64,000 nucleotides of DNA from Clostridiales bacterium (GCA_918262735.1 CAKJYJ010000005.1:6541-70540), one strand, 5' to 3'; positions 1,242 to 26,000 are shown, numbered from the stretch's first letter. Made by a program: numbers and translations. The notes: a model not told the origin generated them from the letters alone.

Positions 1242-4200
1242 TTAATTTATTGGCAAGCCTTGAAGATTAATTGTTTTTACTTCATATTTGCCATCGTAAT
1301 ATGCACCACCAGATATTATGTTTATACTGTTGTTTATTGTGTTTTGAGTAGTATATTTACTAAATGTAAATACTTTAGCTTCTGTTATACTATAATCTGC
1401 ATAATAGAAATATACTTTTTTGCTAATTGTTATAGTCGCTGCACCACTAATTGTGACATTACTAAATGTTGTTTCGTCACTTTTTACAATACTTGTAATT
1501 AATCCAAAGTACAATGAGTTATCAAATATGAAATTATTGTTCATATTTACCGATGCCTCACTCACATATGATGTGTAAACAAATTCGTCTAGCTCGGTTC
1601 CATTTGAATTAATATACTTTTTATGTGATGTTAAATTGATTGATATGTCGCCACTAATAATACTTGAAGAAAGTGCGCTAGTGCCTGGTGCTATATCCAT
1701 ATACCCAACAATAACACCAACATAATTTGAACCGCAAATTATTAAACCTGTGCAATTTTCTTCGTGTTCTTCATCATGGTGCCCAATATTAATTGTTTCT
1801 ATATAGCCGTATGTATAATACCCAACAATACCGCCAACATATTTAACAACATATGGATTATTAATGCTATCGGTAACAAAGCCATTAATTAATTCATTTG
1901 CATAAACACCTGTGAATGACGCACCAATAACATCATAGCCCTTTTCTGATGAAACATTTTTTATTATTCCACCATTCATCAAACCTGCCACACCGCCAAT
2001 TGCAATTGGACATATTGGGTTGGTTTTGAATAAGGTTTTATTCAGTATGTCAGAATTAATTGTTATGTCTTGAATTGTTCCACGATTTTCACCAGTAATA
2101 ATTCCGCCAAAAGCCATTGCTTGAATTTCATTGTTAAATGAATTTAATTCAACATCAATATCGTGTACACATGCAGAGGCGCCAACACCACCAAAAAGTA
2201 ATCCTGCAACAACGCCATATGAGCGAGAGTCTTCTCCAACAGCCACAACAGATATGTCTGCCATGCCTCCAACATATCCAATAATTCCACCACTATAAGA
2301 AACGCTTGTTTTATTAACCGTTGTTTCGTTGTAACTAAGATTTTTTGCAAGTCCACCAACATCCTCTTTGTTATCTATTAAAACTGAGCCATACTGCGTT
2401 GATTTAACAATAACATTGGCAAATACATTTCTTACATCCGTAACTCCGGCAGTTCTACCAAAAACACCACCAAGAATATTGCTACCAGTAACAATTACAT
2501 TTTGTCCTTCAACATTTACGTTATAAACATTTGCATTCGTTAATGTTCCGGCTAATGCCCCAACAAATATTGCATTTGGAAGATTAACATAATATGGCTT
2601 TAGCGTTATATTCTTAAACACACTAACGGTTGTTGAAGTTTGCCCAATACCAGCCAATAAGCCTCCAGAATTAATTGATGAACTGCTATTCACCGAATAA
2701 TTTGAAATATTAAAATTATTACCCTCAAAATGCGCTATAAGCGTTCTGTCGTAGAGTTTTGTGTTATAAACCCTTTCCTGTGTGTAATCTATATCGCAAA
2801 TTAATCTATAGTATTCTAATATACCCATATTGCCTTGATTGCAGTAATCTTCAAATTCAACCGCTGTTGATATTAAATATGGATTATATTGTGAACCATA
2901 TGCAATTTTGGCATCATCTGACGAATACGAATACTTACCATCTTCTATTGTGGTGTTATTATCTAGGTTGAGAGAATATCTAGAATTTGCAATTATGTTA
3001 GGTGAAACAAGTTGTAGTCTACCAGCAACAAAACCTGTTTTTTCAAAACGCTCAGTTTCAAAATCATATATGTCAAACCCTTCGCAAACGGCAGAATATG
3101 TTTGTCCATTCTTCATTTTTTGATCGGTTAATCCCGCATCATTTAATGTTGGAATGTCATTAACATAGAACCAAACAGCATCGGTTAATAGACCATTTTC
3201 TTTATTAATTAAGAAATTTGAGAAGAGTCCATTATTTTTTACCTCACCATGTTTATCAACCAAACTAAAGTCGTATAAGCTTATTGGATTTACACCAGGA
3301 ATTCTAGATGTATAAACATTTGAATTGACATCTTTTTGATAGTTTGTTTCTGATGTGTAATAATTTATAACTCCATCAACTATTGCAAAATAACAATCCT
3401 CAAAACTTGATTTTTCACCCTCTGAAATAACAAATGCATAGTTCAATGTATCATTTACTCTCATTCGTGAAAGTGAATATACTCTACTGATTGAATTGTT
3501 GTTTATTCCAACAAAACCAGCACATTTTGAAGATGAATCTATTGGAATATTTGAATATGAATCGGTAATAATTCCATCATTTTGGTAAACAAAACCTGCT
3601 GTTGCCAAAGACGAATAGATGTTCTTTGAAGCGGTGCTTTCAGAATCTGCATTATAATAGCAATACACCTTATCTGAAATATGCCCTTCTATATAACACA
3701 TAGATATCTTTCCTGAGTTGTTGCAAACAAATCCGCCAGTAACAATATTATCATTTGCCCTACTGGTCTTATTCATAATTTTTGCTTCTTTAACATAACA
3801 GCTTGAAATTTGACCATTATTATTTGCCACAAATCCACCAAGAGAGCCACCATTAAGAGACATGCTTGCCGTTACTCTTGAATTGGTGACATATCCATTA
3901 TTAACTGCTGCAATGGCACCAAAGTATGTGTTTTCCATAGCAGTTACTGAGGTTATAACGCTAACTTCTAATAAGCCACCACCTTTAACACAACAGTTGG
4001 TAATTAAACCATTGTTTGTTGCACACAATATGCCAATATTTGCGTTCATAGTATAATTATTATTAATTGTTAGTGTTGTATGAGTGTTAGACACAACAAT
4101 ATTAATATTTTTAAATACCGAACCAGATTTTATAGTTTCAAACAACGCAAAATTATTTACATTCTCAACATTTGTGCCAATTGTGTTTCCTGTAATGATA

Positions 4201-7200
4201 ATTGAATATCCATTACCATCTAACATACGTGGCGTTGTTTTTATGGTTTCAAATTCATTTCCTTTAATTGTTATATCGCTAACAAGCCTGTAGTATTCAT
4301 CATCTTCAACCAACTTTAATTTTTCATAGCTGTTAATTGGCATTGGGACCTTTTCGCTAGAATTCATATAAACACGAACATTAAATACTGCACTTCCAGT
4401 GTAAATCCTATATATACTATTTGATTCAACATTAGTTAAATCACAAGTTGGAACCCCATTTTTATAAATATAATCATATTTTACTTCAAACTCATATGGT
4501 GCTGAATCAAATATTGCTTTTGGAGTGAATATACCATTTTTGAATAAATAATTAATTGCTCCATCGTCACTTAAACCATCATTAATTTCAATTCGTCTTC
4601 CATTTATATCAAAATAGAATGTTGACAATTCTTTGAATGAATTTAAGAATTGTTGTCGAAGACTATCGCTTTCATATTCCATTGATATTTTATTAGAAAT
4701 AACTTCTTTTATATCTACCGCACTCAAAAGCCTCAGTGAAATATTGTCATCAACAAACAAGTTTTCATTATCTAAAAGAACTTCATAAACACGTAAACTT
4801 ACAACAAAGTTCGCACTTTGTGTTAAGACATTATTCTCTATTTTTCTGCCAAATGAGGTTATTAAAACTTCATAATAAGGATTTTCTCTATAATCAATGT
4901 TAATATTTGAAATATTCAAATAATAAACGCCACCAATGTCGCTTATACTTGCAACATTTGCATCTGAAGAATTGAAGAATACCTCATCTTTATTGAATCC
5001 AACAATATTTGTTACTACGGCATAATTCTTACCCTTTGCAACACTATAAACCGCATTAACTCCCAACGTGTCACTTGGTTCTGGGTCTTTACCGTACAAT
5101 TCAAATTCAACCTTTTTGGTGCTTTTTGCAATAACAGTTATTCCTTTGTAATAGCAGAGTTTTGGTTGACCGTTTTCTGTTTTATAGAAATACATATCAA
5201 TTGGAACATATGTACCCTGATTTATGGATGCAGGTAATGAATATATAATTGCCAAATCCAATGTTCTTTCGGCGGTTGCTGTTTCGGTGTCATAAATTGA
5301 TTCGTTAATTATGTCTGCTCTATATATCCTAAGTGTTAAAACGCCGTCAACCGATGTGTAAACAACTTTATAACTAATATTATAGTATGTTTTATTATCT
5401 TCAATAATCTTTTCAGCCAATGCTAGATATCCACCAGAAACTCCAGAATTCATTGTAATATCAACGTATTCAAATTCGCTAAGTTGTGTGTAAATATATG
5501 TTCTTAAAACATTCATTTCTCCAGAAGATGCAAAGTTGCTTGTGTTTATCATTTCAGATGCAATAAACTGATTTTTGTTCAGATTATTTCTCATGTATAG
5601 GTTTTCTTCGTAGTTATAGTTATTAATTAGAACCGATGTGATTGTTTCTGGAGTGTAATCAATTGTTAAATATTCTCCCTCAAATATTTTTAATGAATGC
5701 ACGAATAGTTTCAAAGCGCAATCCTTAAGCCATCTATAGTTATATGATGTTACAATCATTCTTATTTGATATGTTTCGAAATGTTTAATCCCATCAACAC
5801 TTGAATCTAGTTTAATTAATTTGAAAAGTCTATACCCGTTACTATCTGTTATATAACTTAAATTTGGATCAACAGTATCCTCAATAGAATACATCTCATT
5901 ATTAATATATGGGGTTATTTGAATAATATCATCATTGCTGTAAAGGTTATATGAAATCGACATTTGAATTGTGTCGGTTGGTTCTGCAGCAATATTGTAC
6001 TTATCTATTTCAATATTATCTATTCCCGTCACAGTGCTTATTGCATATGGAACTGAATATGATTCTGCAATATTTGCTGAAAATTTATAGAATCCCAATT
6101 CTTCAACATAAACACCATACAAAACACTGCCCTCTAAAATTAACACAGGGTGAATTTTAATTAATAAGTCCTCATCACTATCTACCAATGATTTTAGGAA
6201 TAATGTTTGTCCTGCAACTCTAACTTCAACAATATCGTCAACTAATATTCCATCTTTATACACATAACCTTCAAATGTTATTTCTGTGTTGTTTTGAAGA
6301 TAAACAGGAGTGTTTTGATAATTATATATATCTGAGTAAGCATTAACGAATAATGTTTTTACCTTATTATTAATAAGTTGTATGTTAGATGTTGTTATAA
6401 CTTTATTTTTATCGGTATATGCTCTAAAATCATCAAAATAAGTTGTTATATAAACCTTTATTGATGCATTATTTTTGTAATTCAAGCTACTATATATTGT
6501 TAAATTAAATGAACCAAGCCCACCAAACTTTAATAAACTGCTATAATTTGTAAAGTTTGCAAGACCTATATTGTCGGTTTCAACAGTAATTTCTTTTGCT
6601 GATATATTGGCAAGTTTTAACAATTCTAAAGTATGCATTGAGTTTTCAATTTTAACTTGGTCGTTTGCATTTTTTGCTTTTTTATAAACCGCAAGAACTA
6701 TGCTAGATATAATGCTTCCACCATTAATTCTTTCTTCCGCCTCTTTTTCGAATTCACCACCATAAACCGTTGTGTAAAAATCCCCGCCGTCATCATAAAG
6801 AATAACAGCAAAATCTCCGTAATAGAAATCAATGTTTAAATTTGGGTCAACACGAAGATTTGAATCATTTCTGAGAGTTCTTGTAACATATGACTCAACT
6901 TTATTGCTTTCATCAAAATTTCTTGTTGCAAAAGCATACAGTTTTTCATATGTGTCGCCATATCTAACAATAAGTGAAATATCAATTCCTTTTCTTGTTC
7001 CGTTGTCGGTTGCCTGAACTTTGTTATACATCACATTTGTTATATCGGCAAGTTCACTCACACTACCAACAAAGCCACAAACATTTCCAGAGCCTCTAAC
7101 GTAAACTCTGCTAATGTTATTTTCAACTTGACCATACGAATAATCTCCCAAGAAACCACCAACAAACGACTCTGCTGATGCTGAAGAGTTAACAACAGTT

Positions 7201-10200
7201 CCAACTGCTTTAATATTAGAGATTAATGCAACATCGCCATCTGTTGATCCGTTTTTACCAACAACGCCACCCAAATAAGTTGCGTTAGATTCAATGCTTG
7301 CATTAACATTAATACCAAACAAACCAACAGAAACTAATGTTGCAGAACTAAATAGGTTTTTAATTCTACCTTCTCCGGCGTTAATTCCGCAAACACCACC
7401 AACATACAAATTTGTGCTTCCAGATTGAATAACAGTAAATTTATTATTCATATCAATTAAAAGTGTTGAATTAATTAACTTATCTGTAATTTGAATATCT
7501 GCCACATTTTTTCCAGCGACCAAACCAATATAAACTGGCACTGCGTTTAAACTTTCACTGTTTATTTCAAGTGGACTTGTCTGTTCACCATAAAGGCTAA
7601 CCGTAACATCACGAATTAAACCATAGTTAACACCACACAAAAGTCCAATATCTGCCTCTAAAGTTTCAATCACCCAGCTTTCTTCACTATCAAACATTCC
7701 AGAGATTGCCAAATTATATATTTTTGCTTCGCTTCCAATTGTTTCAAACATTCCGGAATTTTGTCTGCCAGAATTAACAACCTTAAAGTTAGATATTGAA
7801 CCAATTTGAACGGCCGAACCAAAATCCTCATCTAGTTCACTTAAGAACGTTCCTCTAAGTGTTCCATTAAAGTTCTGTAGTTTAATTTCTTCTCCGCCAC
7901 AATCAATGTTTCTATCAATATAGTAGTGCCTATCTGCAAGCATAGAAACAATACCGCGATAATCTGATATTTTTAATGCAGACTGCTCTGTTTGACCATC
8001 GGCACAGACAAAAGGTAATGCAATGTGATAGTAATAGTTTCCATAATTATCTTTAACATTACTTGATTTCATTTTTGAAACAGGGAAAATCCTAATTATT
8101 CCAGAGCCACCGCTAATATATGTAAATGTCAGATTATTGCCATTCTGTGTGCAAAGCAAGCAATTTGACCCGGTTTTATATTCAATAAATACTCGAATAT
8201 CCTGCATCATTGCATCGGTTGGCATAACATAAAAACTTAGATTAACTTCATTATACTCTTCTGTGTTATCTAAATAAATATCTGTTCTGCCATTAACCAT
8301 ATATAAATTGTCCACATCAATGTAATTATCAATATTAATGGTTATTTCTGAAACATAACTGCTACCCGTTTTGTCTGTTAGCCTTAGGCTAATTGAGAAT
8401 GTATCAATAATCCTAATACCAGTTATATCGCAAACAAACTTAGCTATATACACATCATCTTCGCCGCCGAGTTCAAAATAGCCCAGCGTTCCAACCGGAT
8501 ATTTTCCGTCATCATTCATATGACCAAAATCAGTGGCAGGAATTCTCCAGTTATCTATTGTTATTGCTAAATTTGAACTGCTAAGTTCTCCCATATTGTG
8601 AACCACACTTCCACTTAGAGTTGCATCTAAATATATGAAAGCTTCTGAAAGATTTTGATTCATATATGAAAGGTCATTTTTGTTATAAACAGAAAGATGT
8701 TTAACCTTTCTAGTATTATCTAATATGTCATCAACAAGTTCATCATGACTTGTTGTTATTTGCAATATTTTAATATAATCAATGCATTTAACCGCAATGT
8801 CGTAGTGTTTTGTTGTTAAAACATCAAGACTAAAAGCGCTGTTTGCTTTGTATATTGTTAAAACAACCTCAATGGTAACATCTTCGTCATCTTCTGTGAA
8901 ATTTTTAGCTGTAATAACACCATCGTCCACAACAAAATAATCTTCGTCGCGGCTTTGCACTGTGAGACCAAATGACATTTCGTCTGCATCTCTGTAATTT
9001 AGTATTTTTTCATTGAGTTTTACTTTTGAACCAATACCCTTAAAAACAATGCTATTAACACTGTTATTTAGTTCTGGATCCACTGTGAATTCAGAAACAT
9101 TATTTCCGCTATCTTCAGCAATTTGTAATTGAAAATCTTCTATGGTTATTTCTCTCACAACAACCACAGTTAAGAATGTTCGTAAACCCGTTTGAGTTTC
9201 TAATCTGAACTCAGTTCTTCCAACTTTATTTGCCGTTATTTTTAACATTGGAGTTTGGTAATAAGCTGGTGATGAAAAATCCTGCTCAACATCACAAACA
9301 GAGCCATTTAATGATAATCCAGTTATGTTCAATCTACCAACAGTGCTATTTTCATCAGTCATAAAGCCAGAGAAAAATCTCACAGTTTTCTCCGTTCCTC
9401 TTGACATTGGGATATAAATTGTTGAATCCTCGTATGTTGGATTAATTGTGAATGTTGTGGTTCCCTTATATACCTTAAAATATATATTATTTGAACATAT
9501 AACATTATTAGAATTATCTAGGCAAGATATGGTTAAAACCAAATAGTTTTCGTATGCCATTATTGATTTAACACGCAAAATTTCATTTAAGGAATCTAAA
9601 GTTAACAAATCTATTGCAGTATAATCATAAAGCGATTTATTGCCGTAATAAACCTCAACATATTCAAGGAAGGTTGACCTTTCCATATATGTTGGTTCTT
9701 CACCTGAGGTTATAACTGCACTATAAGTTTCAATTGAATAGTGATAATCTTGACCATTGTATGCACCCTCAACACTTGGGAAAAGTGCAAATCTAAAATT
9801 GAATATTTCTTGACTATTATCGTAAAGTTCAACTGTGTCTATGTTAGATTGCCCATTAATTCTTAATTCTTTTGGCAATATATTAACATAAACCGGTATT
9901 TTTACCACTTCGTAATTTGAAATAAAATCTGCCTGATATATCTTAAATGTTAAGTAGAAAGGAGAATCTGGTTGCGTTATTGAATTTGCCTGAACAATGA
10001 AAGAAAATTCTTCTTCTCTTCCAACGATTGGAGCACCATTTGCAATCTCCCCAGTTAATCCTTCATCGGCATAGGCATCAATCTTATAAAAAGCACGTTC
10101 TGATTCAAACTCATAACCAACACTAACTAGTTTTTGGAAATTTGTGTTGTCGTTTAATGTTAATTCAATTTTACTAATACCCTCTTCTTCAAAAGGATAC

Positions 10201-10946
10201 AAACTCTCAATGGAATCGGCATCAAAATTGCTTGGATTATCTAAATCTTGTGAATACATTGTTACTGACAATTTGCTTAAATCAATTTGATTAACAATTT
10301 TAACTCTTAATTCTGCTGTTATTAGGGTATCAAACAAACTTGTTGCAACAATGATTACCTCATTAATATCATTTAACACAGATAACTCTTCATCAACATA
10401 AAGAGTGTCAGACAACCATGATATACCCATGCCCGAAAGTTCCTCTTCATTTTTAAGAGAAAAAGCAAGTGCGGTCTGTGAAGTGTCTTGTGGGTTAAAA
10501 TTAAAATCTGCCACACTAATTTTTATACTCTCACCTCTTTTAACAAAAACGTCAGATCTTGCCGTTAAACTTTGAATTGTTTCAGAAATATAAACAGGAA
10601 TTTCAATTTTTGTATCTGTCCCCCTAATTGTTATGGTTAAATTTGTTGTTCCTGTCATCTTTGGTGCAATTTTTAATGTGTATTTACCTGCACCGATGTA
10701 GGTTAAAGAATTATCAACAACCACAGCCAAACGCTCTTCAAAACGGAAATCAAAACTAATATTACTATCTTCTTGCATTTCATTTACGGTAATTGTGTAT
10801 TCTTGGTTTTCTTCCGCCATTGTTAAATTTATGGTTGGACTACTAAAAGAAAGCGTGAGAGAACCACCCGCCGAGTCACAACCGGCAAGTATTGCTCCCA
10901 ATATGAATATTAAACTAAATGTTACTACGCTAAAAAACTTTTTCAT
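1242..10946 (-). CDS. Giant surface lipoprotein 1 (3,234 aa): Ig-like beta-sandwich region plus about 3 GLUG-type beta-helix modules
   Basis: The ORF is 9.7 kb without a stop in AT-rich DNA. The signal peptide MKKFFSVVTFSLIFILGAILAGC has lipobox LAGC with Cys23. An RBS GGCGGGAGAG lies upstream. Reiterated GLUG-like coils include YVGGVCGINAGEGRIKNLF, LGGVVGKNGS, GGFVANNNGQISSCYV, TGGFVCNNSGKISMCYIEG, AGFVYQNDGIITDSYSN and AGFVGINNNSISRVYS. Module entries include DCGGEEIKLQNFNGTLRGTF (~7950), MPINSYEKL...MLDGNGYSIIITGN (~4345) and GSQYNPYLISTAVEFEDY...FEGNNFNISNY (~2900). Confidence 0.9.
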   Translation of the reverse strand: MKKFFSVVTFSLIFILGAILAGCDSAGGSLTLSFSSPTINLTMAEENQEYTITVNEMQEDSNISFDFRFEERLAVVVDNSLTYIGAGKYTLKIAPKMTGTTNLTITIRGTDTKIEIPVYISETIQSLTARSDVFVKRGESIKISVADFNFNPQDTSQTALAFSLKNEEELSGMGISWLSDTLYVDEELSVLNDINEVIIVATSLFDTLITAELRVKIVNQIDLSKLSVTMYSQDLDNPSNFDADSIESLYPFEEEGISKIELTLNDNTNFQKLVSVGYEFESERAFYKIDAYADEGLTGEIANGAPIVGREEEFSFIVQANSITQPDSPFYLTFKIYQADFISNYEVVKIPVYVNILPKELRINGQSNIDTVELYDNSQEIFNFRFALFPSVEGAYNGQDYHYSIETYSAVITSGEEPTYMERSTFLEYVEVYYGNKSLYDYTAIDLLTLDSLNEILRVKSIMAYENYLVLTISCLDNSNNVICSNNIYFKVYKGTTTFTINPTYEDSTIYIPMSRGTEKTVRFFSGFMTDENSTVGRLNITGLSLNGSVCDVEQDFSSPAYYQTPMLKITANKVGRTEFRLETQTGLRTFLTVVVVREITIEDFQLQIAEDSGNNVSEFTVDPELNNSVNSIVFKGIGSKVKLNEKILNYRDADEMSFGLTVQSRDEDYFVVDDGVITAKNFTEDDEDVTIEVVLTIYKANSAFSLDVLTTKHYDIAVKCIDYIKILQITTSHDELVDDILDNTRKVKHLSVYNKNDLSYMNQNLSEAFIYLDATLSGSVVHNMGELSSSNLAITIDNWRIPATDFGHMNDDGKYPVGTLGYFELGGEDDVYIAKFVCDITGIRIIDTFSISLRLTDKTGSSYVSEITINIDNYIDVDNLYMVNGRTDIYLDNTEEYNEVNLSFYVMPTDAMMQDIRVFIEYKTGSNCLLCTQNGNNLTFTYISGGSGIIRIFPVSKMKSSNVKDNYGNYYYHIALPFVCADGQTEQSALKISDYRGIVSMLADRHYYIDRNIDCGGEEIKLQNFNGTLRGTFLSELDEDFGSAVQIGSISNFKVVNSGRQNSGMFETIGSEAKIYNLAISGMFDSEESWVIETLEADIGLLCGVNYGLIRDVTVSLYGEQTSPLEINSESLNAVPVYIGLVAGKNVADIQITDKLINSTLLIDMNNKFTVIQSGSTNLYVGGVCGINAGEGRIKNLFSSATLVSVGLFGINVNASIESNATYLGGVVGKNGSTDGDVALISNIKAVGTVVNSSASAESFVGGFLGDYSYGQVENNISRVYVRGSGNVCGFVGSVSELADITNVMYNKVQATDNGTRKGIDISLIVRYGDTYEKLYAFATRNFDESNKVESYVTRTLRNDSNLRVDPNLNIDFYYGDFAVILYDDGGDFYTTVYGGEFEKEAEERINGGSIISSIVLAVYKKAKNANDQVKIENSMHTLELLKLANISAKEITVETDNIGLANFTNYSSLLKFGGLGSFNLTIYSSLNYKNNASIKVYITTYFDDFRAYTDKNKVITTSNIQLINNKVKTLFVNAYSDIYNYQNTPVYLQNNTEITFEGYVYKDGILVDDIVEVRVAGQTLFLKSLVDSDEDLLIKIHPVLILEGSVLYGVYVEELGFYKFSANIAESYSVPYAISTVTGIDNIEIDKYNIAAEPTDTIQMSISYNLYSNDDIIQITPYINNEMYSIEDTVDPNLSYITDSNGYRLFKLIKLDSSVDGIKHFETYQIRMIVTSYNYRWLKDCALKLFVHSLKIFEGEYLTIDYTPETITSVLINNYNYEENLYMRNNLNKNQFIASEMINTSNFASSGEMNVLRTYIYTQLSEFEYVDITMNSGVSGGYLALAEKIIEDNKTYYNISYKVVYTSVDGVLTLRIYRADIINESIYDTETATAERTLDLAIIYSLPASINQGTYVPIDMYFYKTENGQPKLCYYKGITVIAKSTKKVEFELYGKDPEPSDTLGVNAVYSVAKGKNYAVVTNIVGFNKDEVFFNSSDANVASISDIGGVYYLNISNINIDYRENPYYEVLITSFGRKIENNVLTQSANFVVSLRVYEVLLDNENLFVDDNISLRLLSAVDIKEVISNKISMEYESDSLRQQFLNSFKELSTFYFDINGRRIEINDGLSDDGAINYLFKNGIFTPKAIFDSAPYEFEVKYDYIYKNGVPTCDLTNVESNSIYRIYTGSAVFNVRVYMNSSEKVPMPINSYEKLKLVEDDEYYRLVSDITIKGNEFETIKTTPRMLDGNGYSIIITGNTIGTNVENVNNFALFETIKSGSVFKNINIVVSNTHTTLTINNNYTMNANIGILCATNNGLITNCCVKGGGLLEVSVITSVTAMENTYFGAIAAVNNGYVTNSRVTASMSLNGGSLGGFVANNNGQISSCYVKEAKIMNKTSRANDNIVTGGFVCNNSGKISMCYIEGHISDKVYCYYNADSESTASKNIYSSLATAGFVYQNDGIITDSYSNIPIDSSSKCAGFVGINNNSISRVYSLSRMRVNDTLNYAFVISEGEKSSFEDCYFAIVDGVINYYTSETNYQKDVNSNVYTSRIPGVNPISLYDFSLVDKHGEVKNNGLFSNFLINKENGLLTDAVWFYVNDIPTLNDAGLTDQKMKNGQTYSAVCEGFDIYDFETERFEKTGFVAGRLQLVSPNIIANSRYSLNLDNNTTIEDGKYSYSSDDAKIAYGSQYNPYLISTAVEFEDYCNQGNMGILEYYRLICDIDYTQERVYNTKLYDRTLIAHFEGNNFNISNYSVNSSSSINSGGLLAGIGQTSTTVSVFKNITLKPYYVNLPNAIFVGALAGTLTNANVYNVNVEGQNVIVTGSNILGGVFGRTAGVTDVRNVFANVIVKSTQYGSVLIDNKEDVGGLAKNLSYNETTVNKTSVSYSGGIIGYVGGMADISVVAVGEDSRSYGVVAGLLFGGVGASACVHDIDVELNSFNNEIQAMAFGGIITGENRGTIQDITINSDILNKTLFKTNPICPIAIGGVAGLMNGGIIKNVSSEKGYDVIGASFTGVYANELINGFVTDSINNPYVVKYVGGIVGYYTYGYIETINIGHHDEEHEENCTGLIICGSNYVGVIVGYMDIAPGTSALSSSIISGDISINLTSHKKYINSNGTELDEFVYTSYVSEASVNMNNNFIFDNSLYFGLITSIVKSDETTFSNVTISGAATITISKKVYFYYADYSITEAKVFTFSKYTTQNTINNSINIISGGAYYDGKYEVKTINLQGLPIN

Positions 10947-10982
10947 AGTTCTCTCCCGCCTTATCTTTTATTGTTATGGTTA

Positions 10983-17000: not shown

Positions 17001-20000
17001 TATTACTTTTGCATTTCCACCATTATCGATTATAAACAAATCAATATTTCTTGTGACCTCTGTTAATGAGCCAATTTCAGCATACCCCATTGCATATGAA
17101 TATTCAACTGTCCCAGAGTTTTTAAAAATAAACCCAGATATTGAGCCAAAATTATTTTTTGAATATGTGCTAACAATATTCATATTTGAATATGAACCAA
17201 ACACATAGCCATTATTGGTGTAAATAAATCCAGCAACAATACTTGCATCAGTTTTAAGATAGCCATAGAACTGAGTTTTAACCGGATTGAAATTGGTTGC
17301 GTCTAAATCTTCATAGTCAACCAAAGTTTCCTCTGCACTGCAGGTGTAAACAACACCATCATTTGTGTTTGCAAAGCCCGCAAGAGAAACATTCTTATCT
17401 AGTTCGGTTTCGTCTGCATATATTCTTGATTTAACGCCCGAAACAAAACTTGTGCCATCAATTTTTTCAAATGGAACAAAATTTGTTGTTATTGATTGAC
17501 CATCTGCAAAGAAACCAATGTTAAATAGGCTTATTCTGTTTGCAAATGATTGACCTGCTGTTATGTCCTCAGAAAGATAGAAGTATGTTTTTCTACCATC
17601 GGATATTGTTCCTCTTAATTCTTGACAACCATTTTCAACTTCTGCACTGTAGCCATCACCTTCTGAGCTGTGAGAATTAATATTCATGCTGATGTCATAA
17701 ACATAAGGATTCAATTTGGTTCCTTCTTCAAATATTTGAGAGAAACCACCCAACCTGGTATTCAAACTACCAAATGCTGAATTTACTGCAGCGGTTTCAC
17801 TTACACATAGGTTAAGATTTGATGCATAGAACGTTTTAACAGCGCCATCGGGTCCGCAATTAATTTCTGATGTGTTATTTTCTTTTATTGCAATTGCATC
17901 AAACAAGTGTGCATTATTGTGTTTGCTGTATAGTGTTGCCAAACCAATTGAATTGGTTAAATTTAAGGTTGTGTTTACTTCAACCTGACCAACAACACCA
18001 CCAAAATATGATGTTGTCGTTGTTATTAAATCATATTTTATGGCACTAAGGCTACTTGTTGTGTTTTCTAATAATATGTCACCAAAAACATATGCAGAGT
18101 CCACATTAATACTATAATTTGCATTTGTTATGGCACCAAATAATCCACCAACATAGTAGGTTGTTTGGTTTGTTACTGCGGTTTTGTATTCAAATGATAT
18201 TGTGCCACCAAAGATTAGTTTTTTTGCTGACATATTTTCCCCTGGAGTTGCTGGCTTAATTTGACCAACAATTCCACCAATATACATTTTCGCACCGACG
18301 TCAGATTCTTGGGCTTGATTTATAATAATGTTGCCATTATATATCAACGCACCGCCAGCCGGAGTGTCTATTCCGTTGTCAGTAGAACTCATTTTTTCAG
18401 TATAGCCACAAGCACCGCCAACAAATGCGGATGTTGCACCTGCAGGAGAATCCACATATATTGTGTTATAATCATTTGAAGCTTTGCGCCCAAACACTAA
18501 TTCAATTCCAGAAGAATATTCAAAGCTATTGGCTCTTCCAACCATACCGCCAACGTGTATTGCATTATACACACCAATAACTGTTACATCACAACCGGTT
18601 GATGACCCAGCAAATGAATCGTAAACAACAATAACAGAGCTGCTTGCTTTTCCAACAAAGCCACCAACATTTAATACTTGATTTCCATTGTCGCACTTAA
18701 CATAAACCACTCCACTAGACACACTAGCATTTGATATTGTTGTTATATTCTCCACATGTCCACCAATAAGCCCAATGCTTGACTCTTGTGATGGAGTTTC
18801 ACTTTGTGGTAAGCTCACAATAACCTTTCCTTTAACAGAAGCGTTGTTAATATTTGTTGCACTGGCTTTTGATTCACCAAAAACCAAACCAATATTTGCT
18901 TCATTATTAACCGGTTTTATGTCTGATGTTGATGTGTCATTATTTCCTATATAACAACTAGAATTGATTGATATATTTCTAATATCAACAGTTCCACCAG
19001 TTTTACCACATGCAAACAATAATCCCGCATTTTTAACATTTTTATCGGCTATTGGTCCAATCTTTAAGTAACAGTTCTGAAACTCAATTGTTTGGAAAAT
19101 TGTGTTATCTGCTTGGAAAACAACGCCAGCAATATCATAGGTTCCAGCCACACTGCTACTTACCGAACTAAAATCACAATTTCTGTATATTAAGTCATGA
19201 ATAAATGTCCCGTTAATTGCCTCATTTGCAATTGGTGCTGAGAAATTTTCTAGATTTATACCACATATTTCTGCACCATTTAATGTTTTTACTAAAGGAA
19301 CAGATAATTTTGTAAGCGTAATAGAATCATTAAGACCCATGAGTGTACCCCTTAAAACTGGGTATGAAATCTTAATTCTACTACAATCTATATTATTAAC
19401 AATCACAAATTGTGAATCTGGGTTTCCACCGTATCTTCTAATTAAATCAAAATCATCAACCGTTGAAATTGTGAAAACATTAACAGATTCAACATATCTT
19501 ATTGCTGGATATAAACTATCAGTTTTCTTTATCCAGTTACTTGCTGAATACCAACCTGTTTGTTTGAAGGCTGTGTCAACCTGAGCACCACCATCAGAAC
19601 TAAGACCCGCATAGTTGTAGTAACTTGGTATCGTTACTGCATCAACTGAAAGGTTAGTGTTAATATCATCATTGTTAGTTTTAACGAACACTGGAATCGT
19701 CTTGTTTGTGCTATCATTAAACACAACTGTGATTCTGGTGCCATCAACATCATAAATTCCTTCGCCACTCCCTGGTTTCCAACCATTATATAGTGCAGAT
19801 ACGCTTGAATAGTTTATATTACTACCATTTGAGTATGCATTCCCCGATTCTTCAATGTGAACAGAATTATCAAACGCTATTTGAGCAATATGTTTACCAC
19901 TATCACTAACACTAATTGTTTCTTTGCTCCAAACATTTAATGATGCTACCTTTTTAATATCTAATACACTAAATTTGTTAAGGCCAATAACTCCGCCCAT

Positions 20001-23000
20001 ATATGAATCTGAAGCCCCTGCATAAACGTCACCAGTTGCATAAACCTCATTTATTTGAATTTGGTAATATTCATCTGAACTCTCATCAGTAATATATGTT
20101 GGGTTAACTAAACCAATCACACCACCAGCGTATTTTACTGTGCTGTTTCTTACGTTTATTTTTGAATAGCCAACGTCAATTATTCCCCTGTGCATTACAC
20201 CAACTAAACCACCAATAGTGTTTGGTCTATAAAGAGTTTCTTCACCGTCAACTTCAAATAGTTTAAGCTCTCCTCTATCATAATCTAAATTAGATTTATA
20301 ATATGTTTGAATATTTTGTTCAATATCTTTCTGCCAAGTTTCTTCGTGTTCTGCTTTAATCTGATATAAGTATCCACAGTTAAATCCAACAACACCACCT
20401 GCAAAACAATTATATGCAATTAATTTTGCCCCACGAGAAACTGTGAATGATAAATCCTTGGCAACAACAAATGTGCCAATGTAGCCAGCAACACCACCAA
20501 CGGTCATTGCTGTTATTGTTTCAATACCTTTAACGCTTAAACCTTGAACGTTTGCTTCACGAAGGTCAGTGTTTGCAATAACTTTTCTGCTAACAAATTG
20601 TTTTTGTGTGAACAAATCCAGAATACCAAATGCACCACCAGCTATAGATAGTGTTGCAAGTCCGGTTCCTTCCATGTTTGGTGTGTTGTTTGTTAGTTGT
20701 AGAGCATTAAATGATTCGCTTTGGTTGTATGTTGCTGTTACAGAAACATTTTCAACAGTTACACCGGCTATGTAGCAATCGCCAGCAACTCTACCGACAA
20801 CGCCACCAACAATGTTGGCACCAACGACTGTTGGTTTGTCCATGGCGTTCATTGCATACACCCTTACATTAACAAGTATAGAATCAGTTAATGTTCCGGC
20901 AATCGTTCCAACGTTAACTGTATGGTCGGCATTAACACCACCAGTATCTAAACCTATATTTAAGTTCTTAATTCCAGCACCATTTTCAATTGTTTTGAAC
21001 ATACCATAGTTTTGAGAACTTGTTTTACTTGGATTAGATATTGCCAAATGACTAATTGTTAAACCATTTCCATCCAACAAACCAGGTCTGTCTGATAAAT
21101 ATCTGTATTGACCGGTTAAAGAAACATCTGTTGAAGTTAAACTATACTTATAGTCAGTTGTTTCAACCTCTTGGTCATCTATAATAAGTTCATTTAGGTT
21201 AATATTATTAACTAATCTATAAGAACCAAATGCTTTTCCGTTTTCAATATTGTCTGCAAATACAGTTTCAGTTCCACCAAACACATCATTAAATTCTTTT
21301 GCATCTCTAATGATGATTGGGTTGTTAACCGTTCCATATTCGTAGTCATTATCGTACACAAACACATATGCAAGTGAACTCGTTTTGCTTACACTTCCAT
21401 TATTATCTGCTTTATATCTTATTGAATGTGTTATATCATCAGCACTAACTAATCTTGGTCCTTTGGTTGAAATTTTCCAAGTTGCTTGTAAATCATTTGA
21501 TGAACTTCCAAAACTAAATCCATAGAAATTAAAGCTTGAGTTAACATTTTTAACAGGCTCAACTTCTGTGTTGTAAACAGGATCTAGTAGTGTTAAATCC
21601 ATAACGTCAGTTGAATAATAATAACAAGATTTTATTAATCCACGGTTATTATATTCCATTAAATCATTCACACCAATAAAACTTAATTGTGATATATTAT
21701 TCCCCGCAATAGATGAGAATGAATAACTACGCAAAACTTCTCCATTCAATTCATTTTGATACACAAAACCTGCACCCAAACGTCCAACCTGATTGCTTGT
21801 GGTTTTTATCATAATGTTACTATAACAGTCTGCTATTGTGTTGGTGTTGTCGTAAACAAACCCTGCAAGTATGCCATTTCCTTCTATTCCACCATTCATG
21901 GCTTGAATGTCCACATCATTTCCAACACCTTCAACATAGCACATTGAAATAGCACCATCGTTTGTGTTAACAAACCCTGTTGTTACCATTGTTTGGTTGC
22001 GGTCATACGTGTTAATCACATTTATATTTTTTGCAAAACTGCTTGAAATAACCGCTCCGGTATTGTTTTTTATAACAAAACCAGAAACTGTTCCACCAGC
22101 ACGGATTGTAAATGTCTTTGCTTTTGTTTCGTTTGTTCTAAGTGTTGGTTTAACAAAATTGTCACTAGATGTTGGGTACACAAATGATGAAACAAGTTTG
22201 CTATCTCCACCAACTCTACTATTCGTTATGCTACCATTATTGGTTATAACCATACCTGCAGCATTAACCGTTACGTTTGTGTTTAAAGTTGTTACCTTTA
22301 ATCCATACGTGGTGAATGTTGGAGATCTTTCTCCTGAAGCAAATGCCATTACTTCTGTGTTATAAACAACGCCTGAGTTTGTTATTGCAAGACCTGCTAT
22401 GTCAACTCTTATTATATCTTCGCCTAAATTTATTTCTGGTAAGTAATAGTAATTCACTGTAACGTTTTTAATTGTTGTTCCTGAAGAAATTGTGTTAAAG
22501 AGTGCAAAGGTCGCAGATGTGGTTGTTGGTTCTTTGAAACTAACAATGTTAATTGTGTAGTTATTACCATCAAAAGATTTTATTTTGCTTGTGTTTGGCA
22601 TTGATTCATTAACATCGTAGTCATATAAATAAATATTGTTGCTTAAAATGTAATGATTTGCCTTTTCGCTGTTATTCATTGTTTTGAATGATTCAGCATC
22701 AGAAATTTCAATTGGCATATCCTCTGTGGTATATAGTGAGTTTGAAATTGTGAAATAGTATTCGTAAACATATTGTGCGCCATCTGGCATTGTTCTATAT
22801 AGCCTTAATAACATTGGCACTTGACCAACCCTATCTCCACCCATAACATACAATTTTTCGCCAGAAATTCCAAATGTTACTATATTATTATATTGTGGGT
22901 CTTCAACGGCAACAAATTCTTTTCCGTTAATACCATTTATAACTCTTCCAATTGAATATGCTTGATTACCGTTTAGATAATAAAGATATGAAACAAGGTT

Positions 23001-26000
23001 ATATGCTGCACCACCATTATCGTTTCCAAGTTCAAACACTATGTTTTCTGATGCTCCGCCAGAAGTTGAAAGTTTATAATAGTAGTTCGCGTTAAACTCT
23101 GCTATTGCAGATAATACGTCTTCATTTTCTCCATGATTAAAGTTTGTGTAAAGTTCTAACATCTTTGGTTTAATGCTGTTAACTTCCAATTTACCCTCAT
23201 TAACATCTTTAATCTGTATTGAATTATCAACAACTCCAAATGGTGTTATGTAAATGAAAATTGGAGCAGATTTTGCCGTTATATGTTCACCTTTCTCGAT
23301 TTTTTCCGATTCAACATATAAATTTAATGGTATTTTTGATTGGTTAAACGCAAAACCATTTTCACCATCAAAAGGAATGGTGAATGTTAACTTATATTGC
23401 CTGTATCCAACATTTGAACCTTCTATTTCTTCAAATTCAACCAAAATACTGTCTAACACAGTTCCATTGTTGTCTGTTAGGTAAACTTTTTTAATAGTTT
23501 GATCATAAGAAATATTTGCTCTGGCAGTTAATGTTTCTCCCATATAAGCATATATTGATGTTTGACCATCAATTGAAATCTGAGGAACAGCCGGAGCTTT
23601 AACATACAGTGTTATGTTTGATTCTTTTTCAAGTTTCACACCTTTATAGTATGCACTAATGTTTATGTTGATTATTGCATCTTGATTTAATGTGTTTGTT
23701 GGGAAAATAATGATATAGTACGTGCCGATATCTTGTACCAAATCACTATTTTCTGATAAGTTGTTGTTAATTCTAATTCCGTTAACATCATCTAAAACTT
23801 GATATCTTGCATTGTTATCAAATGTGTAAACATCTCCTTCTTTACGTTGAATTCTGTATGCAAGTTGAGCAAGAGTGTTTGATGTGGCAACAATGTCAAT
23901 ATAATCAAGAGTTGCATAATTTGGGTATAAGTCAACAACCAACAACGCTCTTCCTGTTGGTTTAATTACTGATGTTGGGTTAGTCCAAGAAACAACAGAA
24001 TAATCTGTTCCACCACTGCTATACCCTGATACTTGTTCATACATTGCAGAATGAACGCTTGTTAAAGTTTGAGGAAGAATCGTTAGCTGCATTTGACCAA
24101 AAGTACTATAAACAATTTCTCCATCCTCTGAGCAAGCATACACCTTTACTCTGTATGTTTTGTCAACATAATTTAATGAATATCTATATTCACTCTTAAG
24201 TCCAATAACAATTTCAAAGTTATAAACGTTTGAATTTGCCGTTAACTGTCTTCCACCAACACTTATATCAAAAGCGTTTGTTACATCGTAATCATATTGA
24301 TTTTCAATTCTTATATTTTCTTTAATAACCTTGTCAGTTGGCATATCGGTTGTGATTGAAGCATCAAAAACAAATGTATCTTTTGGTTCAATGCTTCCCT
24401 CTGAAGCAGAAACCCCAACATTTGTTGTTCCTCTACTCAGTACCAACTTAACAAAATAATACTCTCTTGTGCCACTTCCTAATTCAGATTCAACTTTTAG
24501 GAAGTAATTATTGATTATGTCGTTATAAACCTCACTATATGCCGAGTATATTTTTGCAGATAGTATCTTTGTTGTTTCTTCTCTGTTCCATGTTGCATGG
24601 ATGGTGTGATTACCAAGAGTTGTTCCTGTTACATAATTTGTTGCATCAATAATGTTTTGCCAGTCATTCAAGTCTTCTTCATCATTGAACATAAAGAATG
24701 CAATATTAAAGTCATTTTGTTTTAATTCTATTCCATCAACAATAACCCTACCAGCTGATGAAATAACTGAACTTCCACCAACAAGGATTTTTATTTCGCT
24801 ACCCTTTTCAAGTTTCTCTATGCCTTCAACAAATCTAAATTCGTCAATGAAATATAATGAAACCATATGAAGCGTTATACTTTGAGTGTAATCGTATTTT
24901 GAATAAACAATCAAATCAAATTCGCCAATGCTATTAATATGAATCGTGTTACCAACAACAGAAACAATACGAGAATTAATACCAAGTTGATCTAATGCTA
25001 AAACCTTTATTGAGCTTCCTAGGTTTGTGTAAACTAAATCTTCAACCGTAATTGTGTTGTGTGTTGATAACCCATTTTGTTTTGTTGAATCTTTAGCCTC
25101 ATAATAGAATACAACACCATATCTTGAAGAAGAATCGCCAATTGAATGCCTTTCAACAGTGTTCACATATCCAGTGCCATCAAGTTGATTACCAACATCT
25201 GAATATGATATCAGGTCAACATATTCTTGTGCCTCTAGGTTTATATCTTCATGAGAATTGTCAATGAACATTATACCATTGATTGTGTTTAGTGTTCCAC
25301 CATCGTTAACTTGAATAGTTCTTCCAATTGCTTCCATACAGTCATTAAATCTAGCAACAATTAAAGAACAATCTTCAATAGTTCCGTTATTTATTCCATA
25401 TAAACCGGTTTTAATAACATTACCTTCACCGATTATGTTTTCATTTTTTGATGCAATTGTTCCAAGGAAAGAACAATTCCTTAGCGTTCCGTTGTTTGTT
25501 CCAACAACACCACCAACACTTCCGTTACCTTCAAAACGAACTAAGCTTGGAATGTAATTTCCGTTCTTTATGTATGATGTGATTTCAACATTTTCAATCA
25601 AACCGCTGTTTGTGTTCGCAATCATGCCTTGCGCATTTGATGTTCCGTAAACAACAAGGTCTTTAATAATTGCTCTTGAGCCAATAGCATCAAATAATGA
25701 ACAATCATCAAGACATAAAGTTGCTGGAATATCATGAGCCTCACTAACACCATAAAGACCCCCATTGAATACTTCACCAACAAATAATGTTGAATTGAGC
25801 ACCAATGTTTCATTGCTCACAATTTTATAGTGTTTTGAAAGATTACCAATCTGTAGAAGATTGCTAATTCTAAATGCCGTGTTATAACTATTACCATCGG
25901 CAATAGTGATTGGTATTATTATTCTCTTAACAGAAACCGTGCTATCCGTGTATTGTGGCGTAATAACAATTTTACCCGTGCCACCAACGGTTCCTGGAAT

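What the first reader, a model, noticed from the sequence alone, without database searches (positions are those of the whole stretch)
1650..25873. Reiterated 'entry segment + GLUG beta-helix' modules, with the first module about 1,000 residues from the N-terminus in both giants
Each beta-helix block is introduced by a similar short segment, then by a 'D/N-G-N/D-G-x-x-I' strand and GG(V/I/F)xG-x-N-x-G-x-I-x-N/C/S-Y coils.

Entry segments in the large protein (approximate nt positions):
- FRISNLLQIGNL, ~25873
- MPIEISDAESFKTM ... FDGNNYTINIV, ~22720
- GTVNNPIIIRDAKEF ... LLDGNGLTISHL, ~21338
- VFTISTVDDFDLIRRYG, ~19480
- GTKLNPYVYDIS, ~17720
- EINGDGKTVYNVTL, ~16450
- GTKEHPYLFLLTDPLTWRELA, ~14484

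Entry segments in the small protein:
- RHYYIDRNIDCGGEEIKLQNFNGTLRG, ~7950
- MPINSYEKLKL ... MLDGNGYSIIITG, ~4345
- GSQYNPYLISTAVEFEDY ... FEGNNFNISNY, ~2900

The first module starts at about aa 1008 in one protein and about aa 999 in the other. This argues that the two genes are paralogues with a shared ground plan, expanded by module duplication to about 3 and about 7 modules.
Basis: seen in the sequence. Interest (0 to 1): 0.65.

Follow-up and report, generated by a model that had tools for sequence, protein, structure and literature searches.

The report
Tandem giant beta-helix surface lipoproteins
Two neighbouring giant genes (5,956 and 3,234 codons) of a ruminant-gut Clostridia bacterium are diverged copies of one unannotated family of lipid-anchored surface proteins, which share a roughly 3,000-residue layout with three beta-helix modules, and the larger copy carries four more modules in a tail; they most likely act as adhesion or binding fibres.

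Summary
All 14 quoted strings are present, 12 within about 3 nt of the stated position and the furthest 19 nt off. The coil motif [GA]G[VIFLA][VIFLAC]G occurs 20 and 8 times, against 0.8 and 0.2 in shuffles, and only inside the proposed modules.

Profile-profile comparison links all ten modules: 21 of 45 module pairs score above 30, and none of 137 decoy or control comparisons does. AlphaFold2 of big aa 2040-3010 (pLDDT 76) gives two right-handed beta-helices. The closest solved folds are the Gram-positive IgA1-protease beta-helix, PL6 lyase, Ag43 and L. reuteri SRRP.

The small protein is colinear with the first ~3,000 aa of the big one. The same plan recurs in other full-length relatives from gut Clostridia metagenomes: lipobox, M1 at aa ~910-995 (not detected in P0014 or L001), M2 at ~2,050-2,310 (2,947 in L001), then M3. 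A big-then-small tandem is seen in at least two other loci.

Corrections:
- Three modules is the family's base state, not an expansion.
- The four extra modules lie in a lineage-variable C-terminal tail.
- The duplications are old (at most about 25% identity).
- The Pfam GLUG model reaches its cut-off in only 2 of 10 modules.
- The "entry" given for M6 is really the DGNG strand.

Function is inferred, not shown. This is a new variant of a known kind.

The parts
11028..28898 (-). 'Big' gene, 5,956 aa: lipoprotein signal, N-terminal region, M1, middle region, M2, M3, then a tail with M4-M7 and a 740-aa C-terminal region
   Evidence: ORF list and translation. The whole stretch 10000-29500, which spans the big gene, lies without a difference on one 74-kb contig of run X1. 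A sheep-gut metagenome contig is colinear over the same stretch with hundreds of substitutions and only small indels.
1242..10946 (-). 'Small' gene, 3,234 aa: lipoprotein signal, N-terminal region, M1, middle region, M2, M3
   Evidence: Full-length orthologues are P0012 (41% identity, 3,200 aa) and P0013 (27%, 3,273 aa).
28830..28898 (-). Signal peptide with lipobox (…LFIAAC|GG) of big
   Evidence: Sequence. Every full-length relative starts the same way. The small protein has …ILAGC|DS at nt 10878-10946.
28233..28898 (-). N-terminal ~220 aa shared by big and small
   Evidence: hhalign small 1-169 ~ big 1-172, score 126.5, E 4e-16, decoy 16.4. BLASTP E about 5e-5 to 2e-4.
25248..25916 (-). Big module 1 (aa 995-1217)
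   Evidence: M1 HMM. hhalign to bM2 56, sM2 48, sM1 47. Pfam Glug 18.6 bits, below the cut-off of 20.5.
21489..22733 (-). Big module 2 (aa 2056-2470): cap plus beta-helix with AGFVxxNxGxIxxSY coils and an invariant ITNSRVG motif
   Evidence: AlphaFold2 model, mostly pLDDT 80-97, short strands in triads. Foldseek matches to beta-helix proteins. 30-33% identical to small M2. Alignment A1.
19869..21356 (-). Big module 3 (aa 2515-3010): GTVNNPIIIRDAKEF cap, LLDGNGLTI strand, seven GGxxG coils
   Evidence: AlphaFold2. hhalign to sM3 206, sM2 78, bM2 60.
17799..19496 (-). Big module 4 (aa 3135-3700)
   Evidence: Five GGxxG coils. hhalign to bM3 53.5. Weak Peptidase_M26_N match at its entry (E 0.016) and Glug 13.8 bits. 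P0001 is colinear up to big aa 3660.
16854..17741 (-). Big module 5 (aa 3720-4015), M2-like coils
   Evidence: hhalign to bM2 62.6 and sM2 59. M2 HMM 24.5 bits against a best decoy of 1.6. Entry HMM 10.2 against a decoy of 4.6.
15459..16661 (-). Big module 6 (aa ~4080-4480)
   Evidence: Pfam Glug 23.6 bits, above the cut-off. hhalign to sM2 48 and sM1 47. BLASTP small M2 ~ big 4129-4393, E 3e-5. Conserved in P0016.
15222..15404 (-). Gly/Ala-rich hydrophobic hairpin (aa ~4499-4559) between M6 and M7
   Evidence: Apart from two marginal beta-region peaks, this is the only strongly hydrophobic stretch besides the signal peptide. A hydrophobic stretch occupies the same place in P0016, though it is less hydrophobic there. 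The low-confidence model shows two long helices.
13254..14501 (-). Big module 7 (aa 4800-5215): GTKEHPYLFLLTDPLTWRELA cap, four GGxxG coils
   Evidence: hhalign to sM1 41, bM3 36, bM6 33. The cap is conserved in P0016 (GTDENPYRFILTDAGLWKNLT).
11031..13253 (-). C-terminal ~740 aa of big, no recognisable domain
   Evidence: No Pfam hit at E<=1. P0016 is colinear only to big aa 5486.
6942..8018 (-). Small module 1 (aa 977-1335)
   Evidence: Pfam Glug 25.5 bits, above the cut-off, 3 stretches. hhalign to sM2 90. In the self dot-plot, 985-1117 ~ 2196-2321 scores 69.
3240..4364 (-). Small module 2 (aa 2195-2569)
   Evidence: hhalign to bM2 431. BLASTP E 1.7e-18.
1617..2918 (-). Small module 3 (aa 2677-3110)
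   Evidence: hhalign to bM3 206. GSQYNPYLISTAVEFEDY cap and FEGNNFNI strand.
28975..29003 (-). Promoter-like site (TTGACT-17-TATAAT) about 77 nt upstream of the big start codon, preceded by a terminator-like hairpin at 29116-29152
   Evidence: No terminator-like site lies in the 81-nt gap between big and small. These are consensus matches only.

Best explanation
The two genes are tandem, probably co-transcribed paralogues of an unannotated family of giant, N-terminally lipid-anchored cell-surface proteins. The family occurs in low-GC Clostridia of ruminant and pig guts.

The family shares a core of about 3,000-3,500 aa: a lipobox signal, about 900-1,000 aa of beta-rich domains with no known family, beta-helix module M1, about 850 aa of further unknown domains, then M2 and M3 back to back.

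Each module is a self-contained right-handed parallel beta-helix.

The modules are homologous to one another and arose by old internal duplications that predate the big/small gene duplication. The big gene carries an extra tail of about 2,950 aa with four more such modules, a hydrophobic helical hairpin and a 740-aa C-terminal region. This tail differs between lineages.

Inferred, not shown: the proteins are exported by Sec, lipidated, and project from the membrane as long multi-domain fibres. Their beta-helix modules serve as rigid ligand-binding (glycan or protein) surfaces, so the proteins act as adhesins or binding scaffolds.
For: Shown:
- ORFs and lipoboxes.
- Motif enrichment confined to the modules.
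- The module homology network: 21 of 45 module pairs have hhalign score above 30, against 0 of 137 decoy and control comparisons. Every module is linked to at least one other.
- HMM hits above decoys.
- Self dot-plots with off-diagonal hits only between modules.
- Colinear profile matches between small and big over about 3,000 aa, and bridging homologues.
- The same module positions in most full-length relatives.
- A giant gene directly followed by a second giant lipoprotein gene in L001 (only the first 850 aa of the second gene were read, and they were not compared with small). In L006 the upstream gene is big-like and the downstream one (P0015) is colinear with both big and small. In L003 the small orthologue P0012 follows a cut 715-aa gene with no detectable similarity to big.
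- Big and small M2 fall in separate clades, each with orthologues in other MAGs (97-100% bootstrap).
- AlphaFold2 of big 2040-3010: pLDDT 76, pTM 0.82, two beta-helices each with a cap. Foldseek returns beta-helix proteins only; the IgA1-protease beta-helix has probability 0.99-1.0, and L. reuteri SRRP has TM 0.42 on the target.
- The invariant residues of M2 are mostly N, G, I and F, which are structural residues.
- The tail (M6, hairpin, M7) is conserved in P0016 at 27% identity, E 3e-87.
- The gene is intact and colinear in an independent sheep-gut strain.

From the literature: the beta-helix domain of the pneumococcal IgA1 protease binds the IgA1 Fab (PMC7695701).
Against: - No experiment or annotation bears on function. 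Adhesion is inferred from fold and architecture only.
- The Pfam GLUG model reaches its cut-off in only 2 of 10 modules and in neither whole protein.
- Only M2 and M3 have a confident structural model. The model for M6-M7 failed (pLDDT 31).
- M7 and M4 are joined to the network by only one to three moderate links.
- aa ~220-550 and ~650-900 of the two N-terminal regions show no detectable similarity.
- Transcription evidence is three small metatranscriptome contigs.
Confidence: 0.72

Rival explanations
1. The modules are catalytic beta-helices (polysaccharide lyase, glycosidase or epimerase-like). On this reading the giants are multi-catalytic fibre- or glycan-degrading enzymes of a rumen bacterium, not adhesins.
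For: The top Foldseek hit by E-value is a PL6 alginate lyase. Many further hits are lyases, GH55 enzymes, AlgG and phage depolymerases. The habitat is ruminant gut. The ITNSRVG motif is invariant in M2.
Against: No Pfam or NCBIfam carbohydrate-active family hits even at E<=10. Foldseek TM scores are low and reflect the generic fold; the highest-probability hits are the non-catalytic IgA1P beta-helix and SRRP. The conserved residues are mostly Asn, Gly and hydrophobic ladder residues, with no conserved acidic cluster.
Confidence: 0.12
2. The conserved core is a delivery stalk and the lineage-variable C-terminal tail is the payload. The arrangement would be analogous to polymorphic, contact-dependent effector proteins (CdiA/FHA-like or Rhs-like), with the hydrophobic hairpin acting in membrane insertion.
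For: Beyond M3, the relatives diverge. The third piece of the L001 gene matches only big 2751-2992, the L006 upstream gene matches M4 only weakly, and the L003 upstream gene has no match. A hydrophobic hairpin sits inside the tail.
Against: No toxin, immunity or secretion-system domain was detected. The gene downstream of big is the 3,234-aa paralogue, not a small immunity gene. The tail is itself built of the same beta-helix modules and is conserved over about 1,470 aa in P0016.
Confidence: 0.06
3. The likeness among modules is convergent. Any beta-helix with Gly/Asn ladders would give such periodic motifs, so the modules need not descend from one another.
For: Identity between non-positional modules is at most about 25%. 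BLAST finds no intra-protein hit. The strongest shared element is a short coil motif.
Against: The non-repetitive cap regions align in register: sM1 985-1117 ~ sM2 2196-2321 (score 69), and sM2 3-127 ~ bM3 9-162 (score 78). The entry HMM also finds sM1 and bM5 above decoys. Reversed-sequence decoys, which keep composition and periodicity, never exceed 29.
Confidence: 0.06
4. The giant ORFs are assembly artefacts or decaying pseudogenes.
For: The L001 and L002 relatives are split into two or three frames.
Against: Both window ORFs are uninterrupted. Run X1 carries the 10000-29500 stretch without a difference on one 74-kb contig. A sheep-gut metagenome has a colinear 23-kb contig with hundreds of substitutions and, among the indels listed, only in-frame ones; 25 further indels were not shown. 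The modules are too diverged to mis-assemble.
Confidence: 0.01

Closest known systems
Beta-helix (GLUG-motif) N-terminal domain of Gram-positive IgA1 metalloproteases (S. pneumoniae and G. haemolysans; PDB 6XJA, 7UVL, 7UVK; Pfam PF07581 and PF05342)
   Same: Right-handed beta-helix of similar width with GLUG-type coils. These are the highest-probability Foldseek matches (0.96-1.0). There are weak Peptidase_M26_N hits at the entry of bM4 and in sM3, and Glug hits in six modules. In the protease this domain binds the substrate's Fab (PMC7695701).
   Different: There is no HExxH motif and no protease middle or C-terminal domain. No sequence-level match to any PDB chain was found. Here there are 3 to 7 beta-helices per protein rather than one, and the anchor is a lipid rather than LPXTG.
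Beta-solenoid binding regions of Gram-positive adhesins (L. reuteri SRRP-BR, PDB 5NXK; pneumococcal PfbA)
   Same: A surface-protein beta-helix used as a binding surface. For 5NXK, Foldseek gives probability 0.8 and TM 0.42 on the target.
   Different: There are no serine-rich repeats, no accessory Sec signal and no LPXTG. The proteins here are far larger and have many modules.
Beta-helical passengers of type V autotransporters and two-partner-secretion adhesins (Ag43, Hbp, HxuA, FHA)
   Same: Long beta-helix stalks on giant surface proteins (Foldseek hits 7KOH, 1WXR, 4RM6).
   Different: Those are Gram-negative proteins exported through an outer-membrane barrel. They form one continuous helix rather than separate capped modules spaced by about 1,000-aa non-helical regions. 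No barrel or TPS domain is present here.
Pectate-lyase-fold enzymes (PL6 alginate lyase 8BWK, chondroitinase B, AlgG, phage tailspikes)
   Same: The fold.
   Different: No family-level sequence match and no recognisable catalytic residues.

Membership tests
Pfam GLUG motif (PF07581) | Match to the family HMM at or above the gathering score (20.5 bits) | tested here: inconclusive
   Isolated modules above the cut-off: sM1 25.5 and bM6 23.6 bits. Below it: bM1 18.6, bM4 13.8, sM2 12.4, bM7 11.6. No hit: bM2, bM3, bM5, sM3. The whole proteins give no hit at E<=0.01. The orthologue P0012 carries a precomputed PF07581 hit.
Right-handed parallel beta-helix (pectate-lyase-like fold) | Three-strand coils stacked into a right-handed solenoid with an N-terminal cap | tested here: met
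   Met for M2 and M3 of big: AlphaFold2 pLDDT 76 and pTM 0.82, and every listed Foldseek hit is a beta-helix protein. For M6/M7 the model failed (pLDDT 31). M1, M4 and M5 were not modelled and rest on profile homology.
Peptidase M26 (IgA1-specific metalloendopeptidase) | HExxH zinc site and the M26 catalytic domains | tested here: not met
   Neither protein has an HExxH motif. There is no Peptidase_M26_C hit. Peptidase_M26_N scores only 14.8 and 11.9 bits against a cut-off of 27.7.
Bacterial lipoprotein | N-terminal signal peptide ending in a lipobox [LVI][ASTVI][GAS]C | tested here: met
   Big has …FIAAC, small has …LAGC. The same holds in all eight full-length or N-terminally complete relatives. 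Lipidation itself was not tested.
Sortase-anchored (LPXTG) surface protein | C-terminal LPXTG followed by a hydrophobic tail | tested here: not met
   There is no LPx[TSA]G anywhere, and the C-termini are not hydrophobic.
Polysaccharide lyase / glycoside hydrolase beta-helix families | Match to a family profile and the catalytic residues | tested here: not met
   No such Pfam or NCBIfam hit, even at E<=10 on single modules. Catalytic residues could not be assessed without a family alignment.
Type V autotransporter / two-partner secretion exoprotein | C-terminal beta-barrel or N-terminal TPS domain | tested here: not met
   No Pfam hit in the N- or C-terminal regions at E<=1. The N-terminus is a lipoprotein signal.

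The most novel reading that the evidence does not exclude
These genes define an undescribed family of giant proteins restricted to gut Clostidia lineages. On this reading a conserved ~3,000-aa lipid-anchored core with three spaced beta-helix modules serves as a chassis, and the upstream paralogue carries a lineage-specific, exchangeable C-terminal tail that determines what the cell binds or attacks. In the window's lineage that tail has four more modules and a membrane-active helical hairpin. The system would then be a Gram-positive, lipoprotein-based analogue of polymorphic surface or effector fibres.
Probability: 0.15. Interest if true: 0.65.

Novelty: new variant of a known kind. Interest (0 to 1): 0.45.

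Why it matters
Genes of 18 kb and 9.7 kb make up 43% of this 64-kb window and have no annotation. Only 14 distinct relatives were found among 5.8 billion protein clusters, all unnamed or 'hypothetical', from Clostridia MAGs or unnamed metagenome contigs (those with a traceable label point to animal-gut studies).

Showing that they share a conserved, modular plan gives this family a first domain map. It provides testable units for expression: single capped beta-helix modules of about 350-500 aa. It also points to a likely role in how these poorly known rumen and gut bacteria attach to plant fibre, mucus or other cells.

A cultured source appears to exist, because run X1 carries the sequence without a difference, so the predictions can be tested. 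The conserved-core and variable-tail pattern and the internal hydrophobic hairpin are the features most worth following up.

Tried and rejected
- Whole-protein Pfam and NCBIfam scans found nothing.
- Direct BLASTP self-comparison found no intra-protein hits, so profiles were needed.
As a result M4 and M5 and the last 740 aa have no homologue set of their own.
The wider distribution of the module was therefore not measured.
- The pattern scans of GTDB genomes (two scans) and JGI metagenomes (one scan) found no relative. This probably reflects how specific the patterns were rather than true absence.
- Profile and single-sequence searches of PDB sequences found nothing.
- AlphaFold2 of big 4125-5215 with a two-sequence alignment gave pLDDT 31 and is not usable.
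- No tRNA or Rfam element is present in the window.
- Rejected: an M26 protease (no HExxH), a sortase substrate (no LPXTG), and an assembly artefact.

Full report
**What is there.** The finding spans two adjacent minus-strand ORFs. 'Big' is 11028..28898 (5,956 aa) and 'small' is 1242..10946 (3,234 aa), separated by 81 nt.
- Both start with a lipoprotein signal peptide (…FIAAC|GG and …ILAGC|DS).
- Both are rich in N, G, S, V, I, T and Y, and neither has an LPXTG or HExxH motif.
- A promoter-like site (TTGACT-17-TATAAT) and a preceding terminator-like hairpin lie upstream of big. No terminator-like site lies between the two genes, so they are probably co-transcribed. These are consensus matches only.
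- The flanking genes are ordinary chromosomal ones, including an M23 peptidase, an ORF that reads as an acyl carrier protein, UvrB and an LPG-synthase-like protein.

**Checking the observation.** Twelve lie within about 3 nt of the stated position and the furthest is 19 nt off.
- [GA]G[VIFLA][VIFLAC]G occurs 20 times in big and 8 times in small, against 0.79 and 0.2 in shuffles.
- The DGNG-type strand occurs 3 and 2 times, against 0.2 and 0.07.
- G[ST]..NP[YI] occurs 3 and 1 times, against 0.16 and 0.1.
- A stricter coil regex gives 8 and 7 hits, against 0.45 and 0.16. All lie inside the proposed modules, which cover 46% and 35% of the proteins.
- The strict DGNG strand is present in 5 of 10 modules. 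The other five carry relaxed versions (FNGTLRG, FNGGLYG, LRGTLMG, FADGQSI, YNGTITL).
- The 'entry' quoted for module 6 is the DGNG strand. By my reading of the sequence and of the P0016 alignment, the actual cap lies at about aa 4080-4110.

**Are the modules alike beyond chance?** BLASTP shows only one strong pair, big 2062-2454 with small 2201-2542 (30-33% identity, E about 1e-18). It shows a few weak cross-hits and no intra-protein hit. Profiles were therefore needed.

I built module alignments from the homologues found and compared all ten modules, four non-module control regions and reversed-sequence decoys with hhalign.
- None of the 137 decoy or control comparisons scored above 29.
- 21 of the 45 module pairs scored above 30.
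- The main links are bM2-sM2 431, bM3-sM3 206, sM1-sM2 90, sM2-bM3 78, bM2-bM5 63, bM2-bM3 60, sM2-bM5 59, bM1-bM2 56, bM3-bM4 53.5, sM1-bM3 50, sM2-bM6 48, sM1-bM6 47, bM1-sM1 47, sM1-bM7 41, bM3-bM7 36 and bM6-bM7 33. Every module is linked to at least one other.

HMM searches with reversed decoys agree.
- An HMM of the cap region alone (built from M2 and M3) also finds sM1 (19.3 bits) and bM5 (10.2 bits), against a best decoy of 4.6.
- It finds bM1 only marginally, and does not find M4, M6 or M7.

An unbiased self dot-plot of the small family gives off-diagonal hits only among M1, M2 and M3, including an in-register match of the caps (985-1117 with 2196-2321, score 69). The single-sequence self-scan of big gives only weak hits (33-41), all between modules.

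**What the modules are.** AlphaFold2 of big aa 2040-3010, with a 16-sequence alignment, gave pLDDT 76 and pTM 0.82.
- The model has two runs of short strands in triads, separated by a low-confidence linker.
- Each run is preceded by a strand, a short helix and a strand.
- Foldseek against the PDB returned only right-handed beta-helix proteins: PL6 alginate lyase, the beta-helix domain of Gram-positive IgA1 metalloproteases (probability 0.96-1.0), Ag43, GH55, AlgG, tailspikes and L. reuteri SRRP (TM 0.42 on the target).
- At sequence level no PDB chain matches.
- Pfam GLUG reaches its gathering score only in isolated sM1 and bM6. It is sub-threshold in four modules and absent in four. There are weak Peptidase_M26_N hits at the entry of bM4 and in sM3.
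- The invariant residues of the M2 family are mainly Asn, Gly, Ile and Phe, plus an ITNSRVG motif.
- A second model (big 4125-5215, two sequences) failed at pLDDT 31.

**The shared ground plan.** Sliding 200-aa profile windows of the small family (small, P0012, P0013) hit the big family (big, L001, L002) colinearly. Decoys scored at most 26.

| small aa | big aa | score |
|---|---|---|
| 1-219 | 1-222 | 126 and 76 |
| 567-666 | 553-645 | 42 |
| 902-1197 | 926-1178 | 55-90 |
| 1412-1517 | 1256-1364 | 26-32 |
| 1761-2058 | 1604-1889 | 27-44 |
| 2187-2996 | 2048-2908 | 72-182 |

aa ~220-550 and ~650-900 give no signal. Bridging sequences support the same order:
- L002 aligns with big 1-1181 in one piece and with small 1-175 and 863-1195.
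- P0013 837-1050 aligns with big 927-1107.
- P0015 is colinear with both.

Module HMMs place M1, M2 and M3 as follows.

| protein | M1 | M2 | M3 |
|---|---|---|---|
| big | 995 | 2056 | 2515 |
| small | 977 | 2195 | 2677 |
| P0012 | 969 | 2181 | 2646 |
| P0013 | 911 | 2117 | 2596 |
| L002 | 918 | 2092 | 2528 |
| P0015 | ~964 | 2310 | 2730 |

All eight N-terminally complete relatives have a lipobox signal. The small protein therefore corresponds to the first ~3,000 aa of big, and three modules is the family's base state.

**The tail of big.**
- P0001 is colinear up to big aa 3660, which covers M4.
- P0016, a partial protein from a Clostridia MAG, is colinear with big 4015-5486 (27% identity, E 3e-87). 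This covers M6, a hydrophobic Gly/Ala-rich stretch and M7 with its cap.
- In other lineages the region after M3 differs. The third piece of the L001 gene matches only big 2751-2992, although it has further modules by HMM. The L006 upstream gene matches M4 only weakly. The gene upstream of the small orthologue in L003 has no match.

**Gene arrangement.**
- The window has 5,956 aa followed by 3,234 aa.
- L001 has about 6,100 aa in three frames, followed by a 2,740-aa lipoprotein gene.
- L006 has 5,036 aa with Big_2, followed by 3,568 aa with Flg_new.
- L003 has a cut upstream gene followed by 3,200 aa.
- In an NJ tree of M2, small groups with P0012 and P0013 (97%), and big falls with the L001, L002 and P0001-5 group. 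The gene duplication therefore predates those lineages. The L006 pair groups together only weakly.

**Source and reality of the genes.**
- The homologues that carry a name are 'hypothetical protein' from 'Clostridia bacterium' MAGs. L002 keeps the upstream M23 peptidase and acyl-carrier genes, and also has SpoIIID.
- The sequence is present without a difference on a 74-kb contig of run X1 (a 2022 study of one coded organism), and at lower word share in bovine, sheep and other gut metagenomes.
- A sheep-gut contig is colinear over the whole 10000-29500 stretch, with hundreds of substitutions. The indels listed are in-frame (25 more were not shown), and one short segment in the C-terminal region is replaced.
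- A bovine metatranscriptome holds three small matching contigs.
- The ORFs are therefore real. No module-level length variation was seen between strains.

**Interpretation.**
- Shown: paralogy, the conserved plan, module homology, the beta-helix fold of M2 and M3, and the lipobox.
- Inferred: export and lipidation, a fibre-like surface display, and binding as the function of the modules. This rests on analogy with the IgA1-protease beta-helix, which binds Fab (PMC7695701), and with beta-solenoid adhesins.
- Rivals are catalytic beta-helices, an effector-delivery architecture, convergent similarity, and artefact. They are scored in their own section.
- Giant genes are uncommon in bacteria (bioRxiv 10.1101/2023.11.21.568195). 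A lipoprotein family with this plan matches no Pfam or NCBIfam family as a whole.

**Verdict.** It is a new variant of a known kind: multi-module GLUG-type beta-helix surface proteins. Interest is moderate.

Noticed in passing
window 15222-15404 (-), big aa ~4499-4559: A Gly/Ala-rich hydrophobic stretch (GWGASAIGMAAIGIYAAVTMVGA K SALLIGAANAYN PVGWAMIAVAGCLALYGGIQAY) sits between modules 6 and 7 of an otherwise extracellular-looking lipoprotein. Apart from two marginal beta-region peaks, it is the only strongly hydrophobic segment besides the signal peptide. A hydrophobic stretch occupies the same place in P0016, but it is less hydrophobic there and contains a Glu. It could be a membrane hairpin acting as a second anchor, or a buried or membrane-active helix pair. 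This is unexplained.
   Followed up: partly
window 539-1060 (-): A 173-aa ORF lies 181 nt downstream of small. It has its own lipoprotein signal (…LFLLSAC|QS) and no Pfam match. It is not conserved downstream of the small orthologues in L003 or L004.
   Followed up: partly
window 29205-30182 (-); L002 1518-2387: An M23 peptidase gene followed by a gene that reads as an acyl carrier protein lies upstream of the giant gene in the window. L002 has the matching M23 and PP-binding (acyl carrier) genes, and also has SpoIIID, so the relative appears to belong to a spore-forming lineage.
   Followed up: partly
L001 67-18460; L002 3759-11695: The big-type genes of two pig-gut metagenome contigs are split into two or three overlapping frames (2,256 + 1,390 + 2,525 aa, and 1,707 + 971 aa). 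These are either frameshift assembly errors or decaying or phase-variable genes. Which of these applies was not resolved.
   Followed up: no
L006 1-20707: In a divergent JGI metagenome lineage the tandem pair (5,036 aa and 3,568 aa) carries extra known domains (Big_2, and Flg_new, the Listeria-Bacteroides repeat). Its two M2 modules group together weakly. This hints at independent duplication or gene conversion in that lineage.
   Followed up: partly
window 22200-22230 (-), big aa ~2224-2231; small aa ~2352-2359: The N-S-R-V core of the ITNSRVG motif is invariant across all nine M2 sequences aligned. It is the only conserved polar or charged cluster in the module, and so a candidate functional site.
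   Followed up: no
window 12635-12688 and scattered small indels in 11421-17602: A sheep-gut strain replaces 52 nt with 79 nt in the C-terminal region of big. It also carries several 3- and 6-nt indels and hundreds of substitutions. No whole-module gain or loss was seen.
   Followed up: partly
window 11031-13253, 22749-25298, 25899-28898; 4362-6941, 7947-10946: About 60% of both proteins (the N-terminal, middle and C-terminal regions) matches no Pfam family even at E<=1. It also shows no internal repeats by profile self-comparison. These are probably undescribed beta-rich domains.
   Followed up: partly
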